In this document: positions 7,435-7,890 of the stretch, in pieces | Layout of the letters: each line of letters starts with the position of its first letter | Position numbering within the stretch: the first letter of the stretch is position 1 | Source of the DNA: Escherichia phage RB32 | DNA length: 64,000 bases | Strand: one strand, 5' to 3' | Sequence record: NC_008515.1 | Made by a program: the position numbers and the translations under genes | Notes under the pieces: generated by a model | Databases searched by the model: none | Told to the model about the DNA's origin: nothing | What the model saw: the letters and a program-made list of their open reading frames with translations, nothing else

Positions 7435-7890
7435 TTATTTTAAATCGTCTGCCCAATCGAGTTTAAGAGGTTCTTTGTATTCACGATCTAATACGACCGG
7501 AATTTGTACATCACCGCTAAATGATAAGGGCCCAACATTATAAGACAATGTTATATGCGGTGTGTAATCATCAAAATCATGTGTAGCACCTAGTGCCCGC
7601 GCATACATGTGTCGACAGCGCAGATATTCAGAATCTAACACAAGTACAAGAGTCGATCCATCTTGTGTTTTCCATACTTCTAAATGTCCAGAAGAAGCTA
7701 CTTCAAAACTTCCGCTTGATGGAACATACGGAACATTTACTCTTGAATAACATATGGTCGAATGAATTTTTTCTCTAGGAACTGGATTAGGAACACGTAA
7801 AGAGCGCTGAAGTTCTTCCAGCGCATCAAGTGTTAATTCTGAAAACTTAGCTGCTACATAAAGACCCGTTGAAAAGTCTTTAAATTCCAT
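7435..7890 (-). CDS. 57B: gp57B; 2H-phosphoesterase-like protein (T4 57B = Acb1 anti-CBASS cyclic-nucleotide phosphodiesterase)
   Basis: Two H-x-T-x motifs (HSTI, HITL) typical of the 2H superfamily; position next to 57A; 151 aa. Confidence 0.8.

What the first reader, a model, noticed from the sequence alone, without database searches (positions are those of the whole stretch)
7435..7890. gp57B carries two H-x-T motifs of the 2H phosphoesterase fold (Acb1-type anti-CBASS nuclease)
The protein contains HSTI and HITL motifs at the spacing typical of 2H cyclic phosphodiesterases. T4 57B has been described as Acb1, which degrades cyclic oligonucleotide immune signals. Its presence directly next to the variable IP array supports reading the whole 4900-7900 region as a counter-defence island.
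Basis: partly seen in the sequence, partly recalled or inferred. Interest (0 to 1): 0.45.

Follow-up and report, generated by a model that had tools for sequence, protein, structure and literature searches.

The report
Known phage anti-CBASS enzyme Acb1 (gp57B)

Summary
The window is phage RB33 (KM607001.1; window 1-12890 = record 64120-77009, exact). The ORF at 7435-7890 (minus strand, 151 aa) is gene 57B. Both H-x-T motifs are there: HSTI (aa 43-46) and HITL (aa 112-115). The protein is 151/151 identical to T4 57B/Acb1 (NP_049750.1, residues 2-152). [quoted passage not shown] 2022). It matches Pfam PF23474 (Acb1) over its full length (E 2.6e-60). It is 68% identical to the FBB1 Acb1 crystal structure 7T26, with both motifs aligned. 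Five related phages carry 7-15 nucleotide differences in this gene and no amino-acid change, which indicates strong purifying selection.

The "counter-defence island" reading is only partly supported, and Hobbs et al. already proposed it for T4 (acb1 next to ipI). Ip5, Ip9 and Ip7 (7362-6392) carry the capsid-targeting leader of injected internal proteins, but their targets are unknown. The four ORFs at 4919-6323 have no evidence of any function.

Verdict: real, correct and already known. Low interest.

The parts
7435..7890 (-). acb1 (gene 57B) coding sequence, 151 aa plus stop codon
   Evidence: ORF. It is RB33_143 '57B'. It is 151/151 identical to T4 NP_049750.1 residues 2-152. Pfam PF23474 Acb1, E 2.6e-60, profile positions 1-144 of 144. 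PDB 7T26 Acb1, E 4e-62.
7753..7764 (-). First catalytic motif H43-S-T45-I, equal to T4 H44/T46
   Evidence: Read directly from the sequence. It aligns with HTTI of 7T26 and HVTV of 9Q2G. The T4 H44A/H113A mutant is catalytically dead.
7546..7557 (-). Second catalytic motif H112-I-T114-L, equal to T4 H113/T115
   Evidence: Read directly from the sequence. It aligns with HITL of 7T26 and HLTL of 9Q2G. Literature.
7438..7461 (-). C-terminal residues 144-151 (LDWADDLK), including W146. They correspond to the lid that closes over bound 3'3'-cGAMP in the FBB1 Acb1 structure.
   Evidence: Alignment to 7T26 extends to residue 148. The lid and W147 stacking are described. The assignment here rests on identity with T4 and is inferred, not measured.
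7888..7892 (-). TAATG overlap: the 57A stop codon TAA (7892-7890) shares one base with the acb1 start ATG (7890-7888). This suggests translational coupling with 57A.
   Evidence: Sequence. The codon upstream of the ATG is ATA in RB33, whereas T4 has ATG and is annotated one residue longer. T2 is annotated with the same 151-aa start.
7890..8120 (-). Gene 57A, the tail-fibre chaperone, immediately upstream on the same strand
   Evidence: Pfam PF17594 GP57, E 4e-51. RB33_144.
8476..8483 (-). TATAAATA, a T4 late-promoter-like motif inside gene 1, upstream of 57A and acb1. It is a candidate source of the late transcription reported for acb1.
   Evidence: Pattern match. In the whole window there are 24 matches against 9 expected. 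Function at this site is inferred only. Middle/late expression of T4 57B is reported, and cGAMP-cleaving activity from about 15 min.
7363..7434 (-). Intergenic cassette between acb1 and Ip5. It has an early-promoter-like GTTTACA-N17-TACTAT, with the -10 element inside a 13-bp hairpin, followed by a Shine-Dalgarno sequence. It is of the PeSL (promoter-early stem-loop) type and marks the boundary between conserved acb1 and the variable IP array.
   Evidence: Hairpin energy -17.4 kcal/mol, z-score -3.7. The published T4/PST consensus is TTTACW N17 TAYWAT.
7105..7362 (-). Ip5, an internal head protein of 85 aa with leader MKTFKEFATKTTITE
   Evidence: RB33_142 'Ip5'. PHROG 3499 internal head protein. 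It is 85/85 identical to Bas37_0261 and 99% identical to T2 Ip5. It is present in 250 phage records.
6762..7034 (-). Ip9, an internal head protein of 90 aa with leader MKTYQEFISE
   Evidence: RB33_141 'Ip9'. PHROG 7673. It is present in only 51 phage records, including the RB15 ip9 entry Z35082.1.
6392..6700 (-). Ip7, an internal head protein of 102 aa with leader MKTFKEFINE
   Evidence: RB33_140 'Ip7'. PHROG 2667. It is 99% identical to T2 Ip7. It is present in 122 phage records.
4919..6323 (-). Four ORFs of unknown function: RB33_136, trna.2, trna.3 and trna.4.
   Evidence: No Pfam, NCBIfam or PDB match, and PHROGs of unknown function only. The Bas37 counterparts bas37_0257-0259 showed no fitness change on CFT073.

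Best explanation
The gene encodes Acb1 (anti-CBASS protein 1), a small metal-independent 2H-fold phosphodiesterase.

Proposed mechanism. After infection, a host CBASS cyclase (CD-NTase) makes a cyclic di- or trinucleotide that would activate a cell-killing effector. Acb1 binds that signal in a U-shaped pocket using aromatic stacking residues: Y11, W73, F106 and W146 in window numbering. E140 reads the adenine N6, and the C-terminal lid closes over the ligand. The H43-x-T45 / H112-x-T114 tetrad performs acid-base catalysis. The adenosine 2'-OH attacks the 3'-5' phosphodiester, giving a 2',3'-cyclic phosphate intermediate that is then hydrolysed to a linear 3'-phosphate product. The signal is destroyed, the effector stays off, and the phage completes its cycle.

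Shown here:
- The ORF exists and carries both motifs.
- The protein is 100% identical to T4 Acb1.
- It matches Pfam Acb1 and the solved Acb1 structures.
- The gene is under purifying selection.

Shown in the literature for the identical T4 protein:
- H44A/H113A abolishes activity.
- T4 delta-acb1 shows a >300-fold defect on CBASS hosts.

Inferred:
- RB33 expresses the gene with T4-like middle/late timing.
- It is translationally coupled to 57A.
For: - ORF and motifs.
- Identity to T4 Acb1 is 151/151. Identical proteins also occur in T2, Bas37, Bas42, Bas44 and Bas45.
- Pfam PF23474 Acb1: 202.7 bits against a cut-off of 27, covering profile positions 1-144 of 144.
- PDB 7T26/7T27 Acb1: E 4e-62, 96/141 identical, both HxT motifs aligned. 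The distant Acb1 9Q2G also aligns at both motifs.
- Purifying selection: 7-15 nucleotide differences and no amino-acid change in five phages.
- Published biochemistry, structure and genetics of the identical T4 protein: PMC9117128.
- Independent confirmation by transposon sequencing that T4 57B becomes important on a CBASS host: preprint 10.1101/2025.11.20.689424.
- Conserved synteny 1 - 57A - 57B - IP locus, as in T4.
Against: Nothing found here contradicts this reading.

Caveats:
- No experiment has been done on RB33 itself.
- Expression signals are inferred from motif matches only.
- Many database records still name the gene 'RNA ligase' or 'hypothetical protein'. That reflects older annotation of the 2H fold, not contrary data.
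- Carrying Acb1 is not purely beneficial. Panoptes guard systems restrict Acb1-encoding T-even phages.
Confidence: 0.97

Rival explanations
1. gp57B is a LigT-like RNA 2',3'-cyclic phosphodiesterase or 2'-5' RNA ligase. It would work on RNA ends, for example in repair of phage or host tRNA cleaved by anticodon nucleases. This is what the common database name 'RNA ligase' implies.
For: It has a 2H fold with two HxT motifs. RefSeq and PHROG 755 name it 'RNA ligase'. The gene lies about 2.6 kb from the phage tRNA cluster.
Against: - The Pfam 2'-5' RNA ligase superfamily model scores only 13 bits (E 0.11) against a cut-off of 27, and only over residues 80-122. The Acb1 model scores 202.7 bits.
- The identical T4 protein was identified by activity-guided fractionation as the cGAMP-cleaving activity, and the delta-acb1 lysate loses that activity.
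- The ligand pocket accommodates only cyclic di- and trinucleotides.
- T4 delta-acb1 grows normally without CBASS.
Confidence: 0.02
2. gp57B is an accessory factor for tail-fibre assembly. This is suggested by its historical name and its translational coupling to the chaperone gene 57A.
For: It lies immediately downstream of 57A, and its start codon overlaps the 57A stop codon.
Against: - It is non-essential in T4 and in Bas37 transposon libraries.
- T4 delta-acb1 grows as well as wild type without CBASS.
- The natural nonsense mutant Bas43 (G60stop) is a viable phage.
- The fold and catalytic tetrad are enzymatic.
Confidence: 0.01
3. The two HxT motifs are a chance occurrence in an unrelated small protein.
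For: On composition alone, two HxT motifs arise in 2.3% of shuffles. In the window, 5 of 58 long ORFs carry at least two.
Against: The protein shows full-length homology and identity to Acb1 proteins of known structure and activity, and the motifs align column for column.
Confidence: 0

Closest known systems
Phage T4 Acb1 (gene 57B, NP_049750.1; Hobbs et al. 2022, Nature 605:522, PMC9117128)
   Same: The amino-acid sequence is identical over all 151 residues. That includes the HxT/HxT tetrad, the stacking residues, the adenine-reading Glu and the C-terminal lid. The flanking genes on the upstream side are the same (1, 57A), and an IP locus lies downstream.
   Different: - There are 7 synonymous nucleotide differences.
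- The T4 annotation starts one Met earlier; RB33 has ATA at that codon.
- The downstream neighbour is Ip5-Ip9-Ip7 here, where T4 has ipI.
Erwinia phage FBB1 Acb1 (PDB 7T26 apo, 7T27 with 3'3'-cGAMP)
   Same: It is 68% identical over 141 aligned residues, with both HxT motifs and the C-terminal Trp conserved. It defines the 2H fold and ligand pocket of the family.
   Different: It comes from a phage of a different host genus. It has a one-residue insertion and about 32% substitutions, for example F where T4/RB33 has W73.
Poxvirus cGAMP phosphodiesterases and distant Acb1 proteins (PDB 9Q2G; Hobbs et al. 2024, Cell, as summarised in PMC12064943)
   Same: [quoted passage not shown] 9Q2G aligns at both HxT motifs.
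   Different: Sequence similarity is only marginal (E 0.004). The lid is N-terminal in the poxvirus enzymes, and they target the animal signal 2'3'-cGAMP.
Cellular 2H phosphoesterases (LigT / 2'-5' RNA ligase superfamily, PF13563)
   Same: They share the two-lobed fold with two H-x-T/S motifs and metal-independent chemistry through a 2',3'-cyclic phosphate. This is established knowledge of the superfamily.
   Different: The match is below the family threshold (13 bits against 27). The substrates are RNA ends rather than cyclic oligonucleotides.
T-even internal proteins: T4 IPI*, Ip2 and Ip3 (GmrSD inhibitors) and Bas37_0260 (McrBC inhibitor). These are the closest known relatives of the neighbouring genes.
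   Same: Ip5, Ip9 and Ip7 share the N-terminal MKT(F/Y)(K/Q)EF capsid-targeting leader with an I-x-E site. They occupy the same locus next to acb1.
   Different: There is no sequence similarity beyond the leader (21-29% identity in forced alignments). Their targets are unknown. T2 carries 99%-identical Ip5 and Ip7 and is still restricted by three GmrSD variants.

Membership tests
Acb1 (Pfam PF23474, anti-CBASS protein 1) | Full-length sequence match to the family model above the curated threshold | tested here: met
   202.7 bits against a cut-off of 27, E 2.6e-60, residues 8-149 on profile positions 1-144 of 144.
Acb1 (Pfam PF23474, anti-CBASS protein 1) | Catalytic HxT/HxT tetrad (T4 H44, T46, H113, T115) | tested here: met
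   H43, T45, H112 and T114 are present. They align with the motifs of 7T26 and 9Q2G and are identical to T4.
Acb1 (Pfam PF23474, anti-CBASS protein 1) | Nucleobase-stacking aromatics, the adenine-reading Glu (T4 Y12, W74, F107, W147, E141) and the C-terminal lid | tested here: met
   Y11, W73, F106, W146 and E140 are present in the translated sequence, which is identical to T4. The roles of these residues are described.
Acb1 (Pfam PF23474, anti-CBASS protein 1) | Cleaves adenosine-containing 3'-5' cyclic di- and trinucleotides and rescues the phage from CBASS | not testable with these tools
   This is shown in the literature for the identical T4 protein. It has not been measured for RB33.
2H phosphoesterase superfamily | Two H-x-T/S motifs on a pseudo-symmetric alpha+beta fold | tested here: met
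   The fold is inferred from 68% identity over 141 residues to crystal structure 7T26, which is described as a compact 2H fold. No structure prediction was run.
LigT / 2'-5' RNA ligase family (PF13563), the source of the common 'RNA ligase' annotation | Sequence match above the family threshold | tested here: not met
   13 bits, E 0.11, against a cut-off of 27, and only over residues 80-122. There is no NCBIfam hit.
T-even internal (injected) head proteins, for the neighbours Ip5, Ip9 and Ip7 | N-terminal capsid-targeting leader MKT(F/Y)(K/Q)EF followed by an (L/I)-x-E prohead-protease site | tested here: met
   The leaders are MKTFKEFATKTTITE, MKTYQEFISE and MKTFKEFINE. M1, K2, T3, E6 and F7 are invariant with T4 IPI and Bas37_0260. 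The PHROG label is 'internal head protein'.
T-even internal (injected) head proteins, for the neighbours Ip5, Ip9 and Ip7 | Packaged in the capsid, injected with the DNA, and inhibits a host restriction system | not testable with these tools
   This is known for T4 Ip1-3 and Bas37_0260. For Ip5 there is only an unfollowed transposon-sequencing signal on CFT073. T2 data argue against three GmrSD variants as targets of Ip5 or Ip7.
Anti-defence island (clustered counter-defence genes) | Several adjacent genes each with demonstrated or strongly inferred anti-defence function | tested here: inconclusive
   Acb1 is demonstrated by identity. The three IP genes are plausible by class. The four ORFs at 4919-6323 have no evidence.
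PeSL (promoter-early stem-loop) shuffling cassettes | An early-promoter consensus TTTACW-N17-TAYWAT combined with a stem-loop, repeated at the borders of variable genes | tested here: met
   There are four copies with an invariant GTTTAC and GTGATACTATTA core. Three of the four hairpins have z-scores of -2.4 to -3.7. The consensus comes from PMC4122927.

The most novel reading that the evidence does not exclude
The protein itself leaves no room for novelty. The least ordinary reading my evidence does not exclude concerns its neighbour.

Ip5 (7105-7362) may be an injected inhibitor of a still unidentified defence of uropathogenic E. coli CFT073. In that case acb1 and ip5 would form a two-gene module that is conditionally needed on the same clinical host.

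The basis is the HIDEN-SEQ supplementary table for Bas37, whose Ip5 and Acb1 proteins are identical to those of the window. Insertions in bas37_0261 (Ip5) gave log2FC -2.09 with adjusted p reported as 0.00000. Insertions in bas37_0262 (Acb1) gave log2FC -1.56 with adjusted p 0.003. Both comparisons are CFT073 against K-12. The authors did not follow these signals up.

The Acb1 signal could instead be a polar effect on ip5, and the Ip5 signal could be unrelated to immunity.
Probability: 0.3. Interest if true: 0.4.

Novelty: already known. Interest (0 to 1): 0.08.

Why it matters
It matters little as a discovery. Acb1 is a founding, structurally and genetically characterised anti-CBASS enzyme, and the RB33 copy is identical to it. 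The GenBank record for RB33 still calls the gene "hypothetical protein", and many related records call it "RNA ligase", so the practical value is correcting the annotation.

The context is mildly useful. The conserved acb1 sits at the edge of a swap-prone array of injected proteins bounded by promoter/stem-loop cassettes. That arrangement illustrates how T-even phages keep one broad-spectrum counter-defence gene fixed while shuffling narrow-spectrum ones beside it.

Acb1 is also a liability on hosts with Panoptes guard systems. This may explain natural knock-outs such as the one in Bas43.

Tried and rejected
- LigT / RNA ligase membership. The Pfam match is sub-threshold and NCBIfam has nothing. 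Rejected.
- Known function or structure for the seven downstream ORFs. Pfam, NCBIfam and PDB sequence searches for Ip5, Ip9, Ip7, trna.3 and RB33_136 gave only chance-level hits. PHROGs gave 'internal head protein' or 'unknown function'.
- Whether any window IP is the newly described McrBC inhibitor Bas37_0260. It is not. Only the leader is shared. The window's Ip5 is instead identical to the neighbouring Bas37_0261.
- My recollection that CFT073 carries an IPI*-insensitive GmrSD, which would have explained the Ip5 signal. The paper I checked attributes that property to strain UTI89, and none of the passages I read links CFT073 to such an enzyme. I dropped the idea.
- Generic sigma-70 and terminator scans of 4300-9600 were no richer than shuffled sequence: 18 promoter-like sites against 19.6 expected, and 3 terminator-like sites against 2.5. 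Only the repeated cassette promoters are meaningful.
- Not run, on purpose: the large homologue searches, structure prediction and fold search. Identity to T4 Acb1 and 68% identity to a crystal structure already settle the fold and family, so the shared compute was not justified.

Full report
**Where the window comes from.** Window 4000-9000 matches Enterobacteria phage RB33 (KM607001.1) at 100% over 5001 bases. Exact string matching places window 1-12890 at record 64120-77009. RB33 is a Tequatrovirus, a T4-like phage of E. coli.

**Checking the observation.**
- An ORF runs 7435..7890 on the minus strand, stop codon included, and encodes 151 aa.
- Its translation contains exactly two H-x-T motifs: HSTI at residues 43-46 (window 7753-7764) and HITL at residues 112-115 (window 7546-7557). 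The two His residues are 69 residues apart.
- The motif pair alone is weak evidence. With this composition, 2.3% of shuffles have at least two HxT, and 0.9% have two at a spacing of 50-100. Five of 58 long ORFs in the window also have at least two.

**What the gene is.**
- The protein is 151/151 identical to T4 57B (NP_049750.1) residues 2-152. T4 is annotated one Met longer. RB33 has ATA at that codon, and the ATG it uses overlaps the TAA stop of 57A (TAATG). T2 is annotated with the same 151-aa product, and that product is also identical.
- Pfam gives a full-length match to PF23474 'Anti-CBASS protein Acb1' at 202.7 bits against a cut-off of 27.
- A search of solved structures finds Acb1 of Erwinia phage FBB1 (7T26/7T27) at E 4e-62, with 96 of 141 positions identical. 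It also finds a distant Acb1 (9Q2G) at E 0.004. Both HxT motifs align in each case.
- The older label 'RNA ligase' persists in RefSeq and PHROG 755. It reflects the 2H fold. The Pfam 2'-5' RNA ligase model reaches only 13 bits, E 0.11.

**How it works.** The evidence comes from the literature on the identical T4 protein.
- Hobbs et al. 2022 (PMC9117128) found T4 gene 57B by activity-guided fractionation as the enzyme that degrades 3'3'-cGAMP. [quoted passage not shown] It does not cleave cGG, cA4 or 3'2'-cGAMP.
- The FBB1 structures show a compact 2H fold. The scissile phosphate sits over the HxT/HxT tetrad, aromatic residues stack on the bases, a Glu reads the adenine N6, and a C-terminal lid closes over the ligand.
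- Cleavage is metal-independent and occurs 3' of adenosine. [quoted passage not shown]
- H44A/H113A T4 Acb1 is inactive. These residues correspond to H43 and H112 in window numbering.
- T4 delta-acb1 grows normally without CBASS and shows a >300-fold defect with it.
- Transposon sequencing independently shows that 57B becomes important on a CBASS host.
- All the named residues are present in the window protein: Y11, W73, F106, E140 and W146.

**Selection and distribution.**
- acb1 is found in 559 of 50,697 phage records, and 558 of them hold at least 80% of the gene.
- Against T4, Bas37, Bas42, Bas44 and Bas45, the window gene differs at 7-15 nucleotides and at no amino acid. This indicates strong purifying selection.
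- Bas43 (phage TadeuszReichstein) carries G60stop. This matches reports that its broken acb1 lets it escape Panoptes, a guard system that fires when Acb1 depletes a decoy cyclic nucleotide.
- Acb1 is therefore a conserved asset that becomes a liability on some hosts.

**The 'counter-defence island' claim.**
- The idea is not new. Hobbs et al. noted that T4 acb1 lies next to ipI, the GmrSD inhibitor, and cited anti-defence islands.
- In RB33 the ipI slot holds three genes: Ip5 (7105-7362), Ip9 (6762-7034) and Ip7 (6392-6700).
- All three carry the MKT(F/Y)(K/Q)EF leader and an I-x-E site, as do T4 IPI and Bas37_0260. They are otherwise unrelated to each other and to those proteins.
- The array really is variable. 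ip5 occurs in 250 records, ip7 in 122 and ip9 in 51, against 559 for acb1.
- Members of this class are anti-restriction proteins. T4 Ip1, Ip2 and Ip3 each block a different GmrSD enzyme, and Bas37_0260 blocks McrBC.
- No target is known for the three proteins in the window. T2 carries 99%-identical Ip5 and Ip7 and is still restricted by GmrSD of CT596, ECOR21 and ECOR17. Those enzymes are therefore not their targets.
- One lead exists. The window's Ip5 is identical to Bas37_0261. In the HIDEN-SEQ supplementary table, insertions in that gene are depleted on uropathogenic CFT073 relative to K-12 (log2FC -2.09). Insertions in the identical acb1 are depleted too (log2FC -1.56).
- The remaining four ORFs at 4919-6323 have no Pfam, NCBIfam or PDB match and only unknown-function PHROGs. 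In that same CFT073 table the insertion counts for bas37_0257-0259, the Bas37 counterparts of trna.2-4, do not change.
- The island reading therefore holds for 6392-7890 by class analogy, and is unsupported for 4919-6323.

**Architecture around the gene.**
- Each of the four intergenic spaces downstream of acb1 holds the same cassette: 7363-7434, 7035-7104, 6701-6761 and 6324-6391. The cassette is GTTTAC, 17 nt, then TACTAT, with the -10 element inside a hairpin, followed by a ribosome-binding site.
- Three of the four hairpins are clearly more stable than shuffled sequence.
- The cassettes fit the published T4/PST PeSL consensus TTTACW-N17-TAYWAT. PeSLs are proposed to mediate modular gene shuffling in T4-type phages.
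- acb1 is thus the last conserved gene before a shuffling-prone array.
- A late-promoter-like TATAAATA lies upstream, inside gene 1, at 8476-8483. This is consistent with the middle/late expression reported for T4 57B, but it is untested here.

**Verdict.** The feature is already known, being identical to a protein with solved homologous structures, defined chemistry and genetic proof. The island extension is partly supported and was also published before. Interest is low. The only open thread is the unknown targets of Ip5, Ip7 and Ip9.

Noticed in passing
window 7363-7434, 7035-7104, 6701-6761, 6324-6391 (minus strand): Four copies of one intergenic cassette lie upstream of Ip5, Ip9, Ip7 and trna.4. 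Each has GTTTAC, 17 nt, then TACTAT, with the -10 element inside a 12-13 bp hairpin, followed by a Shine-Dalgarno sequence and ATG. They match the published PeSL (promoter-early stem-loop) shuffling cassettes of T4-type phages.
   Followed up: yes
window 7105-7362 (Ip5); L008:1364-1621 (Bas37_0261): Ip5 is 85/85 identical to Bas37_0261. In the HIDEN-SEQ supplementary table, insertions in that gene are depleted on uropathogenic E. coli CFT073 relative to K-12 (log2FC -2.09, adjusted p reported as 0.00000). Insertions in the identical acb1 are depleted too (log2FC -1.56, adjusted p 0.003). I found no discussion of either signal in the passages of the preprint I searched. A polar effect of acb1 insertions on ip5 is possible.
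   Followed up: partly
L009:2168-3331 (phage T2) compared with window 6392-7890: T2 has the same locus without Ip9: an identical Acb1, 99%-identical Ip5 and 99%-identical Ip7. Published assays show T2 is restricted by GmrSD of CT596, ECOR21 and ECOR17, so Ip5 and Ip7 do not neutralise those three type IV enzymes. RB15, which has an ip9 gene entry, is reported as not restricted by CT596 GmrSD.
   Followed up: partly
L004:3007-3462 (phage TadeuszReichstein = Bas43): The acb1 orthologue carries a single nonsense change, G60 to stop, and is annotated as two short ORFs. This agrees with reports that Bas43 escapes Panoptes because its acb1 is broken.
   Followed up: yes
window 7888-7893: T4 57B is annotated as 152 aa starting MM. 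RB33 has ATA in place of the first ATG, and T2 is annotated at 151 aa. The conserved start is therefore the ATG that overlaps the TAA stop of 57A.
   Followed up: yes
window 4269-4340 (minus strand): ARAGORN and the RB33 record call the tRNA with anticodon CAT a tRNA-Met. The gene at the same position of the tRNA cluster in T4 and the BASEL phages is annotated tRNA-Ile (codon ATA), which would need anticodon modification.
   Followed up: no
window 9532-10191 (minus strand): RB33_147, 'putative site-specific intron-like DNA endonuclease', lies between genes 3 and 2. T4 has no gene there. Bas42 and Bas43 likewise carry a homing-endonuclease gene inside their tRNA cluster, replacing tRNA-Pro.
   Followed up: no
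window 4919-5434 (minus strand): RB33_136 is a 171-aa ORF between tRNA-Gln and trna.2. It has no counterpart in T4 but occurs in 243 phage records (PHROG 2290, unknown function). It has no Pfam, NCBIfam or PDB match.
   Followed up: partly
whole window: The T4 late-promoter core TATAAATA occurs 24 times, against 9.2 expected from shuffles. Most copies lie on the plus strand between 11 kb and 45 kb, where the late structural genes are expected.
   Followed up: no
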